IMG/VR virus record: IMGVR_UViG_3300021185_003947
DNA: 64,000 bases
Strand: one strand, 5' to 3'
Origin: a virus
Lineage: Duplodnaviria > Caudoviricetes
Shown here: one piece after another, positions 2,322-29,137 of the stretch
Position numbering within the stretch: position 1 is the first letter of the stretch
How the letters are laid out: every line of letters starts with the position of its first letter
Program-made: the position numbers and the translations under genes
Notes under the pieces: generated by a model
Told to the model about the DNA's origin: nothing
The model's database searches: none
Seen by the model: only the letters and a program-made list of their open reading frames with translations

Positions 2322-4555
2322 TTTTTGCCTACACTTTCTTTATACGATTTAAGGCTATTAATAGGAATCCCTAACATATTTTTTATACCAAGTGCTCCTC
2401 GAGTAGCTTCAATTATAGATTTTCCTTCAGCTATAAATTCAGCTTGTTTTTCTCTATCTAACACAACATTTACAACTTCATCTGTAATTAATTCTTTTGG
2501 TTTTACTATATCACCTTCTTTTAACATATCATTATTAAGAAGTTGTACAATTTCATCATATCCATGAGCTAAAATAGGTATAGCTCCAGGTAATGGTGCT
2601 GCAGTTTTTACTTGCTCTTTATCTGGTACAGGAGGAATTATAGCTGGAGCTGGAGAGGGCGTAACAAATGGAGCATTATTTTCTGTAATAGCATCAGATA
2701 ACATAACTTGCTCTGCAACTAATGCATCTTGGTCTACATTTTCTAATTCCGGATCTGTTTGATTAGTAGTTTTAAATCTATTTTTTAAATATCCTCCAAC
2801 ATCAAATCCAGGATCTTGAGCCCAATGTTCAATATCATTATGTCCAAAAACACTACATCCCGGCCATATTGCATAATACGATTTTACTATTATATCAAGA
2901 GTTTTCATTTGAGCTGTCGTTAAAGATTCTTTACCATATTTCCAATATTCTTTCTTTTCAGTTGAATAAGAATTCAATCCACCTATAAAGACTACACCAA
3001 TACTATATTTGTCATGATTATCAGTATGACGACCTTCAATATAAACTGGTCTGCCTCTTTCTATTTGTCCATTTTTCTTTACAACGTAATGATAACCAAT
3101 GCCATCTTGATTCAGCGTTATAGCTCTTTCATGTACTTCTTCAGCACCTGCATGAGATTGATCTAAAAAATGTTCACTCCAATGCAATACGAGTTCTGTA
3201 ATTTCTCTTTTAACACTATTAAATTCTGCAACTAATTCTTCAGGTGAATTAACTCGAGTAAATGCGTACTCACCTGGATTTTTAACTTTTCTTTTACTTT
3301 CAGAAATTACCGTTTGTGCACCTGACCAATTAGATGCAGCTTGACCTATTTCAATTCTTTCAGATGCAAGAGGAGGACTATCTGCATCATCTGGCACAAT
3401 ATTGGTAGAAAGATCTGTTGTAAGACTATTAACCTTTTTTTCAATATCAGTAGTAAGTTTACCTATTTGATTTTCAATAATAGCTCGAGCCTGTCCGGCT
3501 GGTATACCTGGTATTGTTATTTTACCCGTGTCTGGATCTAAGTATGGAACAATCTCTGCACCAAATGTTGTTATTTTACCCGTGTCTGGATCTAAGTATG
3601 GAACAATTTTTCCTAATTTAGCGCTTTGTAATATTGCGGCCGAATTAATGTCATTAATTACTGATGTAAATTTTTCATTTTTTAAATTTTTTACGGCTTG
3701 TAAAGTTTGATCAACATCTAAAACCGCGCCGGCAAGATCTTTTATTCCTCTTGTTAAATGATCATCTGCCGATAATTTAGCATTTTGAATTAATCCTAAT
3801 GCGTTGTTAATTTCAGCATCAACATTTGTTACGGTATTTAAAATATTATCTACATCTTTAATTGATATATCTAAATCTACATTCAATGCGTTTTGTAAAC
3901 CACCTAAGCCATTAGTTAATTTTTTTAGCTGATTAGGAAGAGCAGTTATATTGTTTAATGCACCAGTTAGATTTGTTTCAAGAGCATTAGCAGCAGACTC
4001 TAATGCAGCAACTTTTGCTAAACCATCTTTTGCAAAATCTGATAATTCTGCTGGAACAATTCCTTTCATAATTTTATTAAAATCAGGAAGTTCGCCTGTA
4101 ACTTTATTAATAGCCGATTGAATTGATTGTGGTGTTCCAACTAGTTTATTAGCTTTTTTTATTCCAGATCTAAGTGTTGCAACTGCAGTTTTTGGTGTAA
4201 ACACTTCTCCAGTATCAGGATTTGTCCATGGTCGAGCACTCATTTGTTGAACAATTTCTTCTTCTGCAGTAGTTAAAGCCTTATTCATTTTATCTTCAAG
4301 CCCTGGCATTTCATTAGTTAAAGTTGCAATAGGTGCTACCGCTACTAAATTTGCTATGCTTTCTTTTGCTACTGGCAAAGATTCAGTAAGTGATTTAATA
4401 CCATTGATAGAATTACCAACTTTATTTAAAGCTAATTTAGTTTCATTTAAAGCTTTTACTTGATTACTAACTTTATCTATTTTAGAAGTCAAGTTTTGGA
4501 AGTCTAATGTACCTCGTACATTATTTAATTTATCGTTTAATCCTCTAATATCCAT
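2318..4555 (-). CDS. Virion-associated N-acetylmuramoyl-L-alanine amidase (T7-lysozyme/Amidase_2-like) with long helical N-terminus
   Basis: ELVLHWS...GIGYHYVVKKNGQIERGRP...SIGVVFIGG...VFGHND...DPGFDV amidase motifs; lies between the gp5 pieces. Confidence 0.8.
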   Translation of the reverse strand: MDIRGLNDKLNNVRGTLDFQNLTSKIDKVSNQVKALNETKLALNKVGNSINGIKSLTESLPVAKESIANLVAVAPIATLTNEMPGLEDKMNKALTTAEEEIVQQMSARPWTNPDTGEVFTPKTAVATLRSGIKKANKLVGTPQSIQSAINKVTGELPDFNKIMKGIVPAELSDFAKDGLAKVAALESAANALETNLTGALNNITALPNQLKKLTNGLGGLQNALNVDLDISIKDVDNILNTVTNVDAEINNALGLIQNAKLSADDHLTRGIKDLAGAVLDVDQTLQAVKNLKNEKFTSVINDINSAAILQSAKLGKIVPYLDPDTGKITTFGAEIVPYLDPDTGKITIPGIPAGQARAIIENQIGKLTTDIEKKVNSLTTDLSTNIVPDDADSPPLASERIEIGQAASNWSGAQTVISESKRKVKNPGEYAFTRVNSPEELVAEFNSVKREITELVLHWSEHFLDQSHAGAEEVHERAITLNQDGIGYHYVVKKNGQIERGRPVYIEGRHTDNHDKYSIGVVFIGGLNSYSTEKKEYWKYGKESLTTAQMKTLDIIVKSYYAIWPGCSVFGHNDIEHWAQDPGFDVGGYLKNRFKTTNQTDPELENVDQDALVAEQVMLSDAITENNAPFVTPSPAPAIIPPVPDKEQVKTAAPLPGAIPILAHGYDEIVQLLNNDMLKEGDIVKPKELITDEVVNVVLDREKQAEFIAEGKSIIEATRGALGIKNMLGIPINSLKSYKESVGKK
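3514..3607. repeat. 40-bp exact direct repeat, 54-bp period (IVPYLDPDTGKIT x2)
   Basis: ttgttattttacccgtgtctggatctaagtatggaacaat at 3514-3553 and 3568-3607. Confidence 0.9.
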
Positions 4556-18081: not shown

Positions 18082-18470
18082 CTACGCATACTCGCCGCAT
18101 CAACTGCTGCCTGTTTATTGTCTTTACGAATTGGCATAAGATTACTTTTGTGTGTTACAACAATACCAGCAATCTCATTACCTGTATATTTATTCGTTTC
18201 TTTTAGTGTACCATTATCAATACTATTTGATAATTGATCTCTTGAAACTTTAAATTTTGGGCGCTCATGGCGATAGTCTTGTTTAGTACCTTTTACACCC
18301 ATACGATCAAGAAAAGCTTGATGTTCAGCTTCTCTTTCTTTCCATCCAGGCTTCTTTTTGATTTTTGATTTTCCGTGCACTTGCACGCCTCGAATCATGT
18401 GCATAGACATTGTATACTCCTTTTTATTTGGTGTGGATGGAGAGACTCGAACTCTCACGCCGTAAAGCAC
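18078..18470 (-). CDS. Hypothetical protein (true start likely MSMHMIRG, downstream of tRNA-Leu)
   Basis: ORF-track N-terminus overlaps tRNA-Leu; GGAG RBS precedes the internal ATG. Confidence 0.6.
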   Translation of the reverse strand: MLYGVRVRVSPSTPNKKEYTMSMHMIRGVQVHGKSKIKKKPGWKEREAEHQAFLDRMGVKGTKQDYRHERPKFKVSRDQLSNSIDNGTLKETNKYTGNEIAGIVVTHKSNLMPIRKDNKQAAVDAASMRR

Positions 18471-18513
18471 TAGAACCTAAATCTAGCGTGTCTACCAATT
18501 TCACCACATCCAC
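18429..18513 (-). tRNA. tRNA-Leu(UAG)
   Basis: Cloverleaf GTGGATG...CATCCAC-A-CCA, anticodon loop TT-TAG-GT, long variable arm, TTCGA T-loop. Confidence 0.95.
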
Positions 18514-25223: not shown

Positions 25224-25991
25224 CTACTCTTTCATATTTTTTATATTCTCTATGTAGCAATCCATACTATGATCACTAAAATTATCTATCTTTAATTTCA
25301 TGACACCAGCAGCCATGCCTTTTAGTCTATCCCACAATCTTTTAAAACCAGATATTTTTACTATTTGACCTTCTGAATTCATATAATGTTCTGTTCCATG
25401 ATGTCTATAACCCATCATTACTAAAGGTACACGAGTAACAACGTCGTTATTATTTACGAATCTATGATGGATTACGCCAAGTGAATTACAATATTTTTTA
25501 AAGCCTACACGAGGAGAACCAAACGTATACAATTCAACCGGATCGTTTAAAAATAAATTATGTAGACATCTTGAGGCCATAATAGTTGCCATGCCTGCTC
25601 CGAGTGAATGACCAGTAAACCAAAGAGTCTTGCCATTATTCTGTTTTCTAGTTAAATCTTCGCATATTGCAGGCCACAATTCATCAACTTCTGATTTAAA
25701 TCCTTTATGAACTCTAGATACTGTTTCTGCCATTACCGGAATCGATTTTAAGTCTGCTTTAATGTCATTGAATTCATTTGGTTGAGTTCCTCGACAAGCT
25801 ATAATACAATCATACTTATTCATAAATCTATATGCCTGTGCGCCATTGACATCATAAAATTCAATTGTATTGAATTCAAGTCTACGCGCAGCGCCCGTAG
25901 CTTCTTTAAGGTCAGAGTACGCAATTGCTGATAGTCGAGCAAACAAGAGGCTTCTGGCTTTAAAACTTAATTGATTTATTGGTCGTGCCAT
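25224..25991 (-). CDS. Class 3 lipase (alpha/beta hydrolase)
   Basis: IACRGT...VHKGF...FTGHSLGAG...TFGSPRVG...NDVVTRVP...DH; late promoter TATAAATA at 26025-26032. Confidence 0.88.
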   Translation of the reverse strand: MARPINQLSFKARSLLFARLSAIAYSDLKEATGAARRLEFNTIEFYDVNGAQAYRFMNKYDCIIACRGTQPNEFNDIKADLKSIPVMAETVSRVHKGFKSEVDELWPAICEDLTRKQNNGKTLWFTGHSLGAGMATIMASRCLHNLFLNDPVELYTFGSPRVGFKKYCNSLGVIHHRFVNNNDVVTRVPLVMMGYRHHGTEHYMNSEGQIVKISGFKRLWDRLKGMAAGVMKLKIDNFSDHSMDCYIENIKNMKE

Positions 25992-26035
25992 AATAGTAAT
26001 ACCTTGTATTCTTTTAGATAATACTATTTATATGT

Positions 26036-26227
26036 TTACTCACTTAGAAAGACTGCTTCGCCTTTAATGACTCCACCTTCTTCACGAAGTTCAGCTTTTG
26101 CTTTTTTTTCATCTTCTAACTTTTTAATTTTAGCTGCCTGATCTCTAATAATTTTCTGTTGTGCTTCAATAGTCATAAATTGTTTATCCAATTCTGATGT
26201 TTGAGGAAATTCAATAATTTTACTCAT
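26036..26227 (-). CDS. Small coiled-coil protein
   Basis: ORF with AAGGAG RBS. Confidence 0.55.
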   Translation of the reverse strand: MSKIIEFPQTSELDKQFMTIEAQQKIIRDQAAKIKKLEDEKKAKAELREEGGVIKGEAVFLSE

Positions 26228-26261
26228 TCGTTATCTCCTTATAATATATATTATATATATT

Positions 26262-26371
26262 TGGCTCCAAGGGCAGGATTCGAACCTGCACGAATATAAA
26301 TATTCTTTTGCTAAGACTATATATTCACAACATAAACAGTGCTGCGTGTCTACCTATTCCACCACCTTGGA
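26262..26371 (-). tRNA. Atypical 110-nt tRNA-Asn(GUU)-like RNA with 38-nt variable arm
   Basis: TCCAAGG/CCTTGGA acceptor, G73, encoded CCA, stem CAGCA/TGTTG with loop CT-GTT-TA, T arm GCAGG-TTCGAAT-CCTGC. Confidence 0.85.
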
Positions 26372-26377
26372 TTATTC

Positions 26378-27202
26378 TTACTTTTTAAGAGTATCGATCG
26401 CGCTTATCATGCGTGTCATACCAATTCCACCACCAACTCTTGGAAAGAAATCAAATTCAAGAAACTTTTCAAGTTCTGTTTCAACACGATCTTTACCAAA
26501 TAATTGGTTAATAAGACCAGCATATTCTCCATTTGAAATAGTATGAAATGTATCTCGCATTTGGTCTTTATCAGTACTGCGTTCTGCACTACCAATTGTT
26601 TCCATACCACCAAGGATAACATCAATCTTCTTACTTGTACCATCTTCATTTCTTGACATATTCCAAAATGGACTTGTAAATTCAGGAAATTCTGTAATCA
26701 TAGAACTACCAAAACTAGCTTCCATTGCTAACTCGTGCTGAGCATCTAATTCTGTAGTAGAACTTAGACCGTAATGTTGTTGCCATTCACGATATGTTTT
26801 TTCTGTTGGAATATCAAATCCTAAGTGATTACATAATTGATATTCCATAGTCTTAAGATCATCGATGTCTCCTGGCATTTCAAATTCAAACATCGGAAAA
26901 ATCGTATCATGTCTTCCAGGAATTGCATTTGGTTCTTGTCTATACGAAGTCGAGACACAAAAAAACCCCTTCGAAGAGGGGCGAGTTAATAATTCATATT
27001 CCAACCACATCTGGCCAGTTTGAGGAAGAGGCCATATTTGCCCTTCATAATTATATGTTGCTACATTTTCTGGATCTTCACATGCAGCTAAAATGCTTAA
27101 TCGGTTTTGTGTATGTACTTCTTCAAAGCCTCTATTCAAAAAAAATGACCTTAAAAGGTCAACTGCTTTTGTAAATTTTTTTGGTTCAATCAATTGCGTC
27201 AC
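26378..27202 (-). CDS. Class II (Asp/Asn/Lys-type) aminoacyl-tRNA-synthetase catalytic core without anticodon-binding domain (archaeal-type asparagine synthetase/EpmA-like)
   Basis: Motif 1 FFLNRGFEEVHT, motif 2 SYRQE...RHDTIFPMFEFE, GMETIGSAER, motif 3 GGGIGMTRM; only 274 aa. Confidence 0.85.
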   Translation of the reverse strand: MTQLIEPKKFTKAVDLLRSFFLNRGFEEVHTQNRLSILAACEDPENVATYNYEGQIWPLPQTGQMWLEYELLTRPSSKGFFCVSTSYRQEPNAIPGRHDTIFPMFEFEMPGDIDDLKTMEYQLCNHLGFDIPTEKTYREWQQHYGLSSTTELDAQHELAMEASFGSSMITEFPEFTSPFWNMSRNEDGTSKKIDVILGGMETIGSAERSTDKDQMRDTFHTISNGEYAGLINQLFGKDRVETELEKFLEFDFFPRVGGGIGMTRMISAIDTLKK

Positions 27203-27411
27203 TATCTTATCCTTTTCTTATATTTGCCACATTGGGAATATTTATACAAATAATTTCCATTAATATCATTATTAGCTGAATTATATAAAGCCCAACGAAA
27301 ACAATTCCAAATATTATATGAAGTGTGATAGTACCAAGGGAAAGGAAATTCGTGTCTCCTTTCCCTTAATTGTTTATACCAAGCAATAAATAATTTTATT
27401 CTTCTATTCAA
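27202..27411 (-). CDS. Hypothetical protein
   Basis: ORF track, coupled overlap. Confidence 0.45.
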   Translation of the reverse strand: MNRRIKLFIAWYKQLRERRHEFPFPWYYHTSYNIWNCFRWALYNSANNDINGNYLYKYSQCGKYKKRIR

Positions 27412-28202: not shown

Positions 28203-28288
28203 TGGTGCTCTCACCCGGACTTGAACCGGGACGGCCTATGGCCAACAGATTTTAAGTCTGGCGTGTCTACCTATTCCACCATGAGAGC
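28203..28288 (-). tRNA. tRNA-Leu(UAA)
   Basis: GCTCTCA...TGAGAGC-A-CCA, loop CT-TAA-AA, long variable arm. Confidence 0.95.
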
Positions 28289-28828: not shown

Positions 28829-29137
28829 TTATATTGCGAAACTTTCTCCACATCCACATTGAGCTGTTGCTTGTGGATTTTTTACAACTAAATAGTTTCC
28901 ACCTAGTTCGGTTATATAGTCAACCGTACAACCAAATAAAAACATTTCAGCCATAGCATCAATAACTAAAGTGCTATCTATAACTGTCCCTTTTGAGTCA
29001 TCATCTACATATGTCCAATCATATTTAAACCCGCTACACCCGCCACCTTTTACTTCAAGAAGTACATAATTTTTATCAGCCAAAACTAACTGATTCGTCA
29101 TATATTCTTTTGCTTTTTCAGTAAGTGATACAATCAT
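28829..29137 (-). CDS. iscA: A-type Fe-S cluster carrier (IscA/HesB/ErpA family)
   Basis: VKGGGCSGFKY...VDYITELGG...NPQATAQCGCGESF. Confidence 0.9.
   Translation of the reverse strand: MIVSLTEKAKEYMTNQLVLADKNYVLLEVKGGGCSGFKYDWTYVDDDSKGTVIDSTLVIDAMAEMFLFGCTVDYITELGGNYLVVKNPQATAQCGCGESFAI

What the first reader, a model, noticed from the sequence alone, without database searches (positions are those of the whole stretch)
26262..27202. Anticodon-domain-less Asx-synthetase core coupled to its own aberrant tRNA-Asn: candidate orthogonal aminoacylation or tRNA-linked Asn system
Seen: a 274-aa class II aaRS catalytic core (motifs 1-3 intact, no OB-fold anticodon-binding domain) ends at 26378. Six nt later, on the same strand, begins a 110-nt tRNA with GUU anticodon, Asn-type acceptor (U1-A72, C2-G71, C3-G70, G73) and a 38-nt variable hairpin; it is not grouped with the other tRNAs. 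Known: AsnRS paralogs lacking the anticodon domain act as archaeal-type asparagine synthetases, EpmA aminoacylates the tRNA mimic EF-P, and U1-A72 is the GatCAB determinant of bacterial tRNA-Asn. Inference: the enzyme may charge or amidate this particular tRNA through the acceptor stem and long arm rather than the anticodon. That would give the phage an Asn-tRNA supply independent of host AspRS/GatCAB or resistant to anticodon nucleases. Alternatively the RNA is a non-decoding aminoacyl carrier.
Basis: partly seen in the sequence, partly recalled or inferred. Interest (0 to 1): 0.9.

Follow-up and report, generated by a model that had tools for sequence, protein, structure and literature searches.

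The report
Phage mini-synthetase with its own tRNA
A marine T4-like phage carries a stripped-down asparagine-type tRNA-charging enzyme followed six bases later by an oddly built asparagine tRNA; the two stay together in ocean phages while their neighbour genes change, so they are probably an uncharacterised enzyme-tRNA pair.

Summary
ORF 26378..27202(-) is a 274-aa class IIb aaRS catalytic core with no anticodon-binding domain. It is predicted with high confidence and most resembles AsnRS. Six nt downstream lies a 110-nt tRNA (26262..26371, Rfam 44.7 bits; ARAGORN misses it). It has a GUU anticodon, U1-A72, G73, encoded CCA, a tRNA-Leu-like D arm, U37 and a 38-nt variable arm.

The pairing is conserved. 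79 of 84 related phage loci, including Prochlorococcus phages P-SSM2/5/7, carry the tRNA next to the enzyme. Of 80 loci found through the tRNA alone, 75 have the enzyme just upstream, 5 are cut by contig ends, and none lacks it. Flanking genes are hypervariable. The cloverleaf covaries strongly, while U1-A72, G73 and GUU never change.

Diagnostic pocket residues are AsnRS-type, not AspRS-, LysRS- or AsnA-type.

Arm length and position 37 flip between near-identical enzymes, so the distal arm is unlikely to be the recognition handle. Homologs at 44-60% identity in Bacteroidota, CPR bacteria and huge phages keep the same motifs without such a tRNA. The enzyme is strongly acidic.

Best reading (about 0.5): a dedicated minimal AsnRS-like enzyme charges this tRNA. 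No biochemistry exists and I found no paper on it. This scan flagged the same pair before on other phage DNA.

The parts
26378..27202 (-). 274-aa AsnRS-like class IIb aaRS catalytic core (GTG start, TAA stop) with no anticodon-binding domain
   Evidence: ORF. Pfam PF00152 E 6e-14. Family profile against PDB is best for AsnRS at 1.9e-13. AF2 pLDDT is 96. Foldseek top hits are AsnRS 1x54, 9sh8, 2xti and 8h53. The N-terminus MTQLI is conserved in relatives.
26372..26377 (-). 6-nt spacer (GAATAA) between stop codon and tRNA 5' end
   Evidence: Read from the sequence. The spacer is 4-11 nt in 71 related loci.
26262..26371 (-). 110-nt type-II tRNA(GUU) with encoded CCA (26262..26264); U1-A72, G73, Leu-like D arm
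   Evidence: Rfam RF00005 44.7 bits. Own covariance model R1 scores 92.5 bits. Cloverleaf fold. Covariation.
26335..26337 (-). Anticodon GUU within loop CUGUUUA; position 37 is U
   Evidence: U33-G34-U35-U36 are invariant in 54 sequences, while position 37 is U, A or C.
26290..26327 (-). 38-nt variable region: outer stem GAAUAUA/UAUAUUC and an inner hairpin with a GCAA-containing loop
   Evidence: Fold. The base of the arm covaries (cols 47-49/84-86). The length is labile across relatives.
27239..27246 (-). TATAAATA (T4-type late-promoter-like motif) 44 nt upstream of the GTG start
   Evidence: Read from the sequence. It is present upstream in only 10 of 66 distinct relatives, against 1.3% of background windows, so it is lineage-specific.

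Best explanation
The ORF and the tRNA are one functional module of marine T4-like myoviruses. The protein is a homodimeric class IIb synthetase reduced to its catalytic core. Its amino-acid pocket is of the AsnRS type, so it most likely forms Asn-AMP. Because it has no anticodon-binding domain, it probably recognises its partner through features that never vary in the tRNA family: U1-A72, G73 and the type-II (Leu-like) core. It would then esterify the 3' end of this private tRNA(GUU), which reads AAY codons. Shown here: the fold, the motifs, the AsnRS-type residues, the conserved linkage and the tRNA covariation. Inferred: the amino acid, that the tRNA is the acceptor, and any benefit to the phage. 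Possible benefits are an Asn-tRNA supply for an AT-rich, Asn-rich proteome, or a supply independent of host enzymes and tRNA-targeting defences.
For: Linkage: the tRNA lies 4-11 nt after the stop codon in 71 loci. The covariance model finds it adjacent in 4 more and about 130-160 nt downstream in another 4, giving 79 of 84 loci. The same arrangement holds in P-SSM2, P-SSM5 and P-SSM7. Reverse test: of 80 loci found by a tRNA-only pattern, 75 have the enzyme directly upstream, 5 are cut by contig ends, and 0 lack it. The nearest flanking ORFs fall into about 39 clusters on each side, so only the pair is kept. tRNA: 99.9% of cells pair, 15 of 20 pairs carry compensatory changes, and U1-A72, G73 and U33-G34-U35-U36 are invariant. 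Enzyme: profile-to-PDB search is best for AsnRS (1.9e-13), then archaeal AspRS (4e-11), EpmA (3e-6) and AS-AR (2e-4). Foldseek's top hits are AsnRS. Positions aligned to E. coli AspRS K198, Q199, Q231, D233 and R489 read L67, E68, M104, E106 and R207, as in AsnRS (QSSQLYLE; FWMLEPE; GGSQR). The motif 2 Arg (R88), motif 3 Arg and flipping-loop Glu (E42) are kept. The homodimer model scores 0.77 against a best control of 0.02; that mark was reached by 21 of 30 proteins solved as pairs of one chain and 0 of 23 solved as single chains, the runs agree in at least 86% of contacts, and partner pLDDT is 88. The interface is the class II motif-1 one, so this may reflect likeness to solved synthetases. 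A 45%-identical homolog in a roughly 1-Mb genome has a canonical tRNA-Asn 205 nt downstream.
Against: There is no biochemical evidence. Homologs at 44-60% identity with identical active-site motifs sit in Bacteroidota and CPR chromosomes and in huge phages with no such tRNA nearby. Those Bacteroidota also have a full AsnRS and AsnB. So the ancestral job may be tRNA-independent or may use an ordinary tRNA. Five phage loci keep the enzyme without an adjacent tRNA. The protein is strongly acidic: pI about 4.7 and net charge -17, more so than E. coli AsnRS and AspRS cores. That is not what one expects of an RNA binder with no extra domain. The tRNA keeps every host Asn identity mark (GUU, G73, U1-A72), so host AsnRS or AspRS/GatCAB could charge it. 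A 6-nt spacer also makes the pair hard to separate by recombination, so linkage alone overstates functional coupling.
Confidence: 0.5

Rival explanations
1. The enzyme is tRNA-independent. It could be an asparagine synthetase of the AsnA/AS-AR kind, or another adenylate-forming ligase, as may be the case for its cellular relatives. The neighbouring tRNA would be charged by host AsnRS or by ND-AspRS plus GatCAB. The two would then form an 'asparagine supply' cassette, or simply hitch-hike because only 6 nt separate them.
For: Cellular and huge-phage homologs with the same motifs have no linked tRNA. Catalytic-core-only class IIb paralogs are known to be tRNA-independent (AsnA, archaeal AS-AR, EpmA; established knowledge). 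The protein is very acidic. The tRNA carries the full host Asn identity set. Cellular neighbours include PEPCK, pyrD and pyrE/F, which are aspartate-linked metabolism genes. The window proteome has 6.1% Asn at 34% GC.
Against: The pocket residues that hold the alpha-amino group (E42, Q61, E106) and the motif 2 Arg are in canonical aaRS form, and the side-chain positions are AsnRS-type. The match to AS-AR (2e-4) and AsnA (E 0.027; no PF03590 hit) is far weaker than to AsnRS. This reading does not explain why the tRNA is always a type-II oddity that is never found without the enzyme (0 of 75), nor why most copies lack a purine at position 37.
Confidence: 0.28
2. The enzyme acts on this tRNA, but not as an AsnRS. 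It might attach Asp, which host GatCAB then amidates via U1-A72. It might amidate Asp-tRNA directly. Or, like GluQ-RS, it might aminoacylate a modified base such as Q34 of the GUU anticodon.
For: U1-A72 is invariant while pairs 2-71 to 5-68 covary; U1-A72 is the GatCAB determinant (established knowledge). GUN anticodons are queuosine sites, and GluQ-RS is a precedent for a truncated synthetase that modifies a tRNA (established knowledge). The linkage evidence is the same as for the main explanation.
Against: The AspRS-specific Lys198 and Asp233 equivalents are replaced by Leu and Glu, as in AsnRS, which argues against Asp. There is no evidence for any modification activity. GluQ-RS is a class I enzyme.
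Confidence: 0.12
3. The tRNA is not a decoder. It would be a decoy or sponge for host tRNA-targeting nucleases, or an aminoacyl carrier for a non-ribosomal reaction.
For: Position 37 is U or C in most copies, and positions 32/38 also vary; these flanks flip between near-identical enzymes. That resembles the anticodon-loop variation proposed to evade anticodon nucleases (PMC10264068). A lipase gene follows the pair here and in P-SSM2/5.
Against: GUU, U33, the T loop, G18-G19 and a 7-nt loop are all strictly kept, as expected of a working elongator tRNA. The lipase neighbour is absent from most loci.
Confidence: 0.06

Closest known systems
Asparaginyl-tRNA synthetase (class IIb), catalytic domain
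   Same: Same fold (Foldseek top hits, TM about 0.75-0.8 on the query). Motifs 1-3 are present. The AsnRS-type signature Q-T/S-G/S-Q-M/L-x-L-E, F-x-M-x-E-x-E and G-S-x-x-R is present. The predicted dimer uses the class II interface.
   Different: No N-terminal OB-fold anticodon-binding domain. Sequence identity is only 16-20%. The score is 18.7 bits against the TIGR00457 cut-off of 342.6. Family-specific motifs are LSILAACEDP and PFWNM. The protein is much more acidic.
Archaeal asparagine synthetase A (AS-AR, 'AsnRS2', PDB 3p8t) and bacterial AsnA
   Same: These are also catalytic-core-only class IIb paralogs of about 290-330 aa without an anticodon-binding domain.
   Different: The match is much weaker (3p8t 2e-4; AsnA E 0.027; no PF03590 hit; NF005055 15 bits against a cut-off of 389). 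They are not known to be linked to a tRNA gene.
EpmA (PoxA/GenX), the LysRS-like EF-P beta-lysine ligase
   Same: It is a truncated class IIb core that acts on an L-shaped tRNA mimic using the catalytic domain alone.
   Different: It has a LysRS-type pocket (G-F-S-E), whereas the family keeps the Asx-type Arg (alignment). The TIGR00462 score is 12 bits against a cut-off of 286.9. The partner here is a real tRNA.
Type-II tRNAs (Leu, Ser, bacterial Tyr) and bacterial tRNA-Asn
   Same: The D arm is identical to the phage's tRNA-Leu, and the arm is long and base-paired. GUU, G73 and U1-A72 match bacterial tRNA-Asn.
   Different: To my knowledge, no known tRNA-Asn is type II. G73 excludes Leu and Tyr identity (both use A73). 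Position 37 is U or C in most copies instead of the near-universal purine.
'tRNA ligase' (T4-GC 194) plus tRNA-Asn of Prochlorococcus phages P-SSM2, P-SSM5 and P-SSM7
   Same: These are direct homologs: the enzyme is 65-70% identical and an 85-88-nt long-arm tRNA-Asn(GUU) follows 8-10 nt downstream.
   Different: Their variable arm is shorter (about 13 nt) and no CCA is encoded. They are only listed as a sporadic 'host-like' gene and have not been studied (PMC3037559).

Membership tests
Class IIb aaRS catalytic domain (Pfam PF00152 tRNA-synt_2) | Score over the Pfam gathering cut-off, covering motifs 1-3 | tested here: met
   52.2 bits against a cut-off of 25, residues 10-269. Motif 2 YRQE..GRH..FPMFEFE and motif 3 GGGIGMTR are conserved.
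Class IIb aaRS catalytic domain (Pfam PF00152 tRNA-synt_2) | Antiparallel beta-sheet class II fold and homodimer through motif 1 | tested here: met
   AF2 pLDDT is 96 and Foldseek gives E 4e-17 to AsnRS/AspRS. The dimer model scores 0.77 against a best control of 0.02 (mark reached by 21 of 30 proteins solved as pairs of one chain and 0 of 23 solved as single chains; runs agree in at least 86% of contacts; partner pLDDT 88). This is a prediction and may reflect likeness to solved dimers.
Canonical asparaginyl-tRNA synthetase (NCBIfam TIGR00457 asnS) | N-terminal OB-fold anticodon-binding domain and full-length score over the cut-off | tested here: not met
   The protein begins at the catalytic core. 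It scores 18.7 bits against a cut-off of 342.6.
Canonical asparaginyl-tRNA synthetase (NCBIfam TIGR00457 asnS) | AsnRS-type amino-acid pocket (Leu/Glu instead of AspRS Lys198/Gln199; Glu instead of Asp233; Arg489 equivalent kept) | tested here: met
   L67, E68, E106 and R207 by alignment to eukaryotic AsnRS and to E. coli AspRS and AsnRS. The functional meaning of these positions comes from published AsnRS and AspRS structures, recalled from memory.
Canonical asparaginyl-tRNA synthetase (NCBIfam TIGR00457 asnS) | Asn-dependent aminoacylation of tRNA-Asn | not testable with these tools
   Needs an enzyme assay.
Asparagine synthetase A (AsnA PF03590; archaeal AS-AR NF005055) | Model score over the cut-off, or closest structural or sequence relative | tested here: not met
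   No PF03590 hit. NF005055 scores 15.2 bits against 389. 3p8t scores 2e-4 against AsnRS at 1.9e-13 and is absent from the Foldseek top 50. E. coli AsnA scores E 0.027.
EpmA / GenX (TIGR00462) | Model score over the cut-off and a LysRS-type pocket | tested here: not met
   12 bits against a cut-off of 286.9. The Asx-type Arg is kept where LysRS and EpmA have Glu.
tRNA (Rfam RF00005) | Score over the gathering cut-off and a cloverleaf supported by covariation | tested here: met
   44.7 bits against 29. 15 of 20 pairs show compensatory changes and 99.9% of cells pair.
Bacterial tRNA-Asn | GUU anticodon, G73 discriminator, U1-A72 | tested here: met
   Invariant in all 54 distinct sequences.
Bacterial tRNA-Asn | Type-I body (4-5-nt variable loop) and purine 37 (t6A) | tested here: not met
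   The variable region is 38 nt here and 12-38 nt in relatives. Position 37 is U here and U, C or A in relatives.

The most novel reading that the evidence does not exclude
Ocean T4-like phages carry a natural, self-contained, anticodon-blind aminoacylation pair. A 274-aa catalytic-core-only AsnRS charges a private type-II tRNA(GUU) through U1-A72, G73 and the Leu-like core. This would give the phage an Asn-tRNA supply that is insulated from host synthetases and amidotransferase. The rapidly changing anticodon-loop flanks and variable arm would help it escape host tRNA-targeting defences. It would be the smallest known natural class II synthetase-tRNA pair and a ready-made orthogonal pair for genetic-code engineering.
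Probability: 0.4. Interest if true: 0.85.

Novelty: new variant of a known kind. Interest (0 to 1): 0.75.

Why it matters
If the enzyme really charges this tRNA, a class II catalytic core alone can select a tRNA without reading the anticodon. That bears on how synthetases and tRNA identity evolved. It would also be a rare case of a phage bringing both halves of an aminoacylation system. Finally, it would offer a compact, possibly orthogonal synthetase/tRNA pair for synthetic biology. The module is abundant: at least 588 IMG/VR loci and at least 8000 clusters at 90% identity in metagenomes. Its role therefore matters for understanding translation during infection of marine bacteria. If the enzyme is instead only an Asn synthetase, the finding reduces to an auxiliary metabolic gene beside an unusual tRNA. 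The type-II tRNA-Asn with a pyrimidine at position 37 would still need explaining.

Tried and rejected
1. ARAGORN on the window misses the tRNA. In relatives it mislabels the long-arm copies as Gly(acc), Asp(atc) or Ile(aat). I replaced it with an acceptor/T-arm script and my own covariance model R1.

2. Huge phages LR756501 and LR756508 hold homologs at 44-49% identity. R1 hits there are tRNA-Leu, Ser and Pro, and a normal 74-nt tRNA-Asn lies elsewhere. No long-arm GUU tRNA was found.

3. Divergent representatives P0154, P0133 and P0161 returned no DNA. P0176, P0264 and P0231 (33-39% identity) have no tRNA nearby.

4. The window's own assembly is not held, and the nearest record G001 is an 18-kb fragment with no match. 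The rest of the phage genome could not be checked for a second tRNA-Asn.

6. I tested the idea that cellular homologs replace a missing AsnRS or Asn synthetase. The Bacteroidota carriers have AsnRS and AsnB, and some have AsnA. Among small genomes, three have AsnRS and three do not, and the five of these six that were tested (G007-G011; G012 was not) have GatB. These are incomplete MAGs, so nothing is settled.

7. The late-promoter idea fails as a general feature: TATAAATA lies upstream in only 10 of 66 relatives.

8. RNA-library contigs cover the locus and bridge the tRNA/enzyme junction. Contigs cannot show transcript ends or exclude DNA carry-over, so this is only a weak hint.

9. Ten literature search calls in all, eight counted by the tool, found no functional study. 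The only mention is the listing as 'tRNA ligase' in PMC3037559.

10. The protein atlas search returned only generic names.

Full report
OBSERVATION. On the minus strand, a GTG-started ORF runs from 27202 to 26378 and encodes 274 aa. Pfam finds only tRNA-synt_2, the class II D/K/N family, across residues 10-269 (E 6e-14). NCBIfam gives only sub-threshold matches to AspRS, AsnRS, LysRS, AS-AR and EpmA. So this is a catalytic core with no anticodon-binding domain. After the TAA stop come six bases (GAATAA) and then a 110-nt tRNA at 26371..26262. Rfam scores the tRNA at 44.7 bits against a gathering score of 29, although ARAGORN does not call it. The minimum-free-energy fold is a cloverleaf. The acceptor stem is UCCAAGG/CCUUGGA, the discriminator is G73, and CCA is encoded. 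The 3-bp D stem and large D loop are identical to the phage's own tRNA-Leu(UAA). The anticodon loop is CUGUUUA (GUU, with U at position 37). The variable region is 38 nt with a 7-bp outer stem.

IS IT CONSERVED? Prochlorococcus phages P-SSM7, P-SSM2 and P-SSM5 encode a 65-70% identical 'tRNA ligase'. In each, an 85-88-nt long-arm tRNA-Asn(GUU) with the same CUGUUUA loop, U1-A72 and G73 follows 8-10 nt later. IMG/VR holds at least 588 related loci, and the protein database holds at least 8000 clusters at 90% identity, nearly all marine.

I examined 84 loci: the window, the 3 cyanophages and 80 IMG/VR contigs. In 71 of them a tRNA lies 4-11 nt after the stop. A covariance model built from 54 distinct copies (A2, R1) finds eight more: four adjacent and four about 130-160 nt downstream. 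Five loci have none.

The reverse test used a degenerate pattern for the D arm plus the UGUU loop alone. It returned 80 loci. In 75 the enzyme is directly upstream, 5 are cut by contig ends, and none lacks it. Meanwhile the nearest ORFs on either side fall into about 39 different clusters among about 80 loci. Only the pair is retained.

The cloverleaf is strongly supported. 99.9% of 1080 cells pair, 15 of 20 pairs carry compensatory double changes, and 0 of 500 shuffles reach the observed values. The base of the variable arm also covaries. Invariant positions include U1-A72, G73, U8, A14, G18-G19 and U33-G34-U35-U36. Position 37 is U, A or C.

THE ENZYME. A library of 50%-identity representatives contains 672 related clusters, mostly 260-310 aa. 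A 40-sequence profile (A3) matches solved AsnRS best (2xti 1.9e-13; human NARS1; 1x54). Archaeal and eukaryotic AspRS follow (3nel 4e-11). EpmA (about 3e-6) and the archaeal asparagine synthetase AS-AR (3p8t 2e-4) are far weaker. The AlphaFold model is very confident (pLDDT 96, pTM 0.92). Its best Foldseek matches are AsnRS from P. horikoshii, T. thermophilus, B. malayi and human.

Residue-level alignments place family residues L67 and E68 where AspRS has K198 and Q199, M104 and E106 where AspRS has Q231 and D233, and R207 at AspRS R489. This is exactly the AsnRS pattern (QSSQLYLE; FWMLEPE; GGSQR). The motif 2 and motif 3 arginines and the flipping-loop Glu are also kept. The functional meaning of these positions comes from published AspRS and AsnRS structures, which I recall from memory. 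The alignments themselves are tool results. A two-copy model predicts the class II motif-1 dimer. It scores 0.77 against a best control of 0.02; that mark was reached by 21 of 30 proteins solved as pairs of one chain and 0 of 23 solved as single chains, the runs agree in at least 86% of contacts, and partner pLDDT is 88. This may simply reflect likeness to solved synthetases.

WHAT WEAKENS THE SIMPLE STORY.
(a) The family is not confined to tRNA-linked phage genes. Homologs at 52-60% identity sit on long chromosomal contigs of Bacteroidota, beside PEPCK, gldB/gldC and nadE, or beside pyrD and pyrE/F. Others sit in CPR bacteria. NCBI calls them 'amino acid--tRNA ligase-related protein'. None has a tRNA nearby, yet their active-site motifs are the same as in the phage clade. 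These Bacteroidota also possess a full AsnRS and AsnB. Huge-phage homologs likewise lack a long-arm GUU tRNA.
(b) On the enzyme tree, variable-arm length class changes at least 12 times. Near-identical enzymes carry 82-nt versus 98-nt tRNAs and different 32/37/38 residues. So the distal arm and N37 are not co-evolving with the protein. What is constant is a type-II core, U1-A72 and G73.
(c) The protein is very acidic. Its pI is about 4.7 and net charge -17, or -6.2 per 100 aa. E. coli AsnRS and AspRS cores are at -2 to -3.4 per 100 aa, and this phage's ORFs have a median of -0.3.
(d) The tRNA keeps all host Asn identity elements, so host enzymes might charge it.
(e) A 6-nt spacer makes separation by recombination intrinsically rare.

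One independent hint points the other way. A 45%-identical homolog lies in a roughly 1-Mb genome with GatB but no AsnRS hit over the cut-off. It has a canonical tRNA-Asn 205 nt downstream, behind a terminator.

EXPRESSION. RNA-library contigs from one study cover the locus and bridge the tRNA/enzyme junction (26242-26555 and 25900-26422). This is compatible with co-transcription but does not prove it. A T4-type late-promoter-like TATAAATA lies 44 nt before the start in this lineage, but in only 10 of 66 relatives.

INTERPRETATION. The most likely reading (about 0.5) is a dedicated minimal AsnRS-like enzyme that aminoacylates this private type-II tRNA(GUU), probably with Asn. Recognition would go through the acceptor end and the tRNA core, not the anticodon or the distal arm. 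The main rival (about 0.28) is a tRNA-independent ligase, for example an asparagine synthetase, packaged with a host-charged tRNA-Asn. Smaller possibilities are another reaction on the tRNA (Asp charging for GatCAB, direct amidation, or base aminoacylation) or a non-decoding role. The fast turnover of positions 32/37/38 and of the arm resembles the anticodon-loop variation proposed to let phage tRNAs escape tRNA-targeting defences (PMC10264068). That link is speculative here.

NOVELTY. The gene pair has been annotated in P-SSM2, P-SSM5 and P-SSM7 since 2005-2010 as 'tRNA ligase' and tRNA-Asn, and it is listed among sporadic host-like genes (PMC3037559). I found no functional or comparative study. 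Earlier notes of this scan flagged the same pair on other phage genomes, and a follow-up agent reached a similar verdict. These are not independent evidence. I rate it a new variant of a known kind: a truncated class IIb synthetase paralog, here locked to a unique type-II tRNA-Asn.

Noticed in passing
window 25224..25991 (-): A class-3 lipase/esterase gene (phrog_21992, E 6e-25) follows the pair, after a 63-aa ORF. P-SSM2 and P-SSM5 also have a 'lipase' directly after their enzyme-tRNA pair. Most other relatives do not.
   Followed up: partly
window 28203..28288 (-) and 18429..18513 (-): The phage's tRNA-Leu(UAA) has a D arm identical to the odd tRNA's. Model R1 scores the two tRNA-Leu genes at 51-62 bits. 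This suggests the GUU tRNA arose from a phage tRNA-Leu by changes to the acceptor and anticodon.
   Followed up: partly
L021 1097..1478; L033 993..1375; L034 992..1374: ARAGORN calls permuted tmRNA genes (tags ending ...ALAA) about 1.5-2 kb upstream of the enzyme in some related marine phage contigs, next to tRNA-Ala, Glu and Asp clusters.
   Followed up: no
window 26965..26982 and 27146..27161 (-): Two terminator-like hairpins with T runs lie inside the enzyme's coding sequence on the coding strand. Four such sites were found in 1.7 kb against 0.9 expected from shuffles.
   Followed up: no
window 28829..29137 (-): A 102-aa ORF has a GGGCSGF...CGCGESF pattern typical of IscA/HesB-type iron-sulfur assembly proteins. 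PHROGs lists its family (phrog_17776) as function unknown.
   Followed up: no
L130 2429..3316 and 3521..3593: A 45%-identical homolog in a roughly 1-Mb MAG genome has a canonical 73-nt tRNA-Asn(GUU) 205 nt downstream on the same strand, behind a terminator hairpin. That genome shows GatB but no asnS hit over the cut-off.
   Followed up: partly
L124 2447..3328 (Moheibacter MAG) and L105-L129: Chromosomal Bacteroidota and CPR homologs ('amino acid--tRNA ligase-related protein', WP_424368966.1) lie between PEPCK and gldC/gldB/nadE, or directly after pyrD. This appears to be an uncharacterised cellular enzyme family.
   Followed up: partly
L011, L014, L018, L022, L036, L103: These phage-type loci keep an apparently intact enzyme gene but have no tRNA within the fetched flanks. 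In L011 and L014 a 2OG-Fe(II) oxygenase-like ORF starts right at the stop codon.
   Followed up: partly
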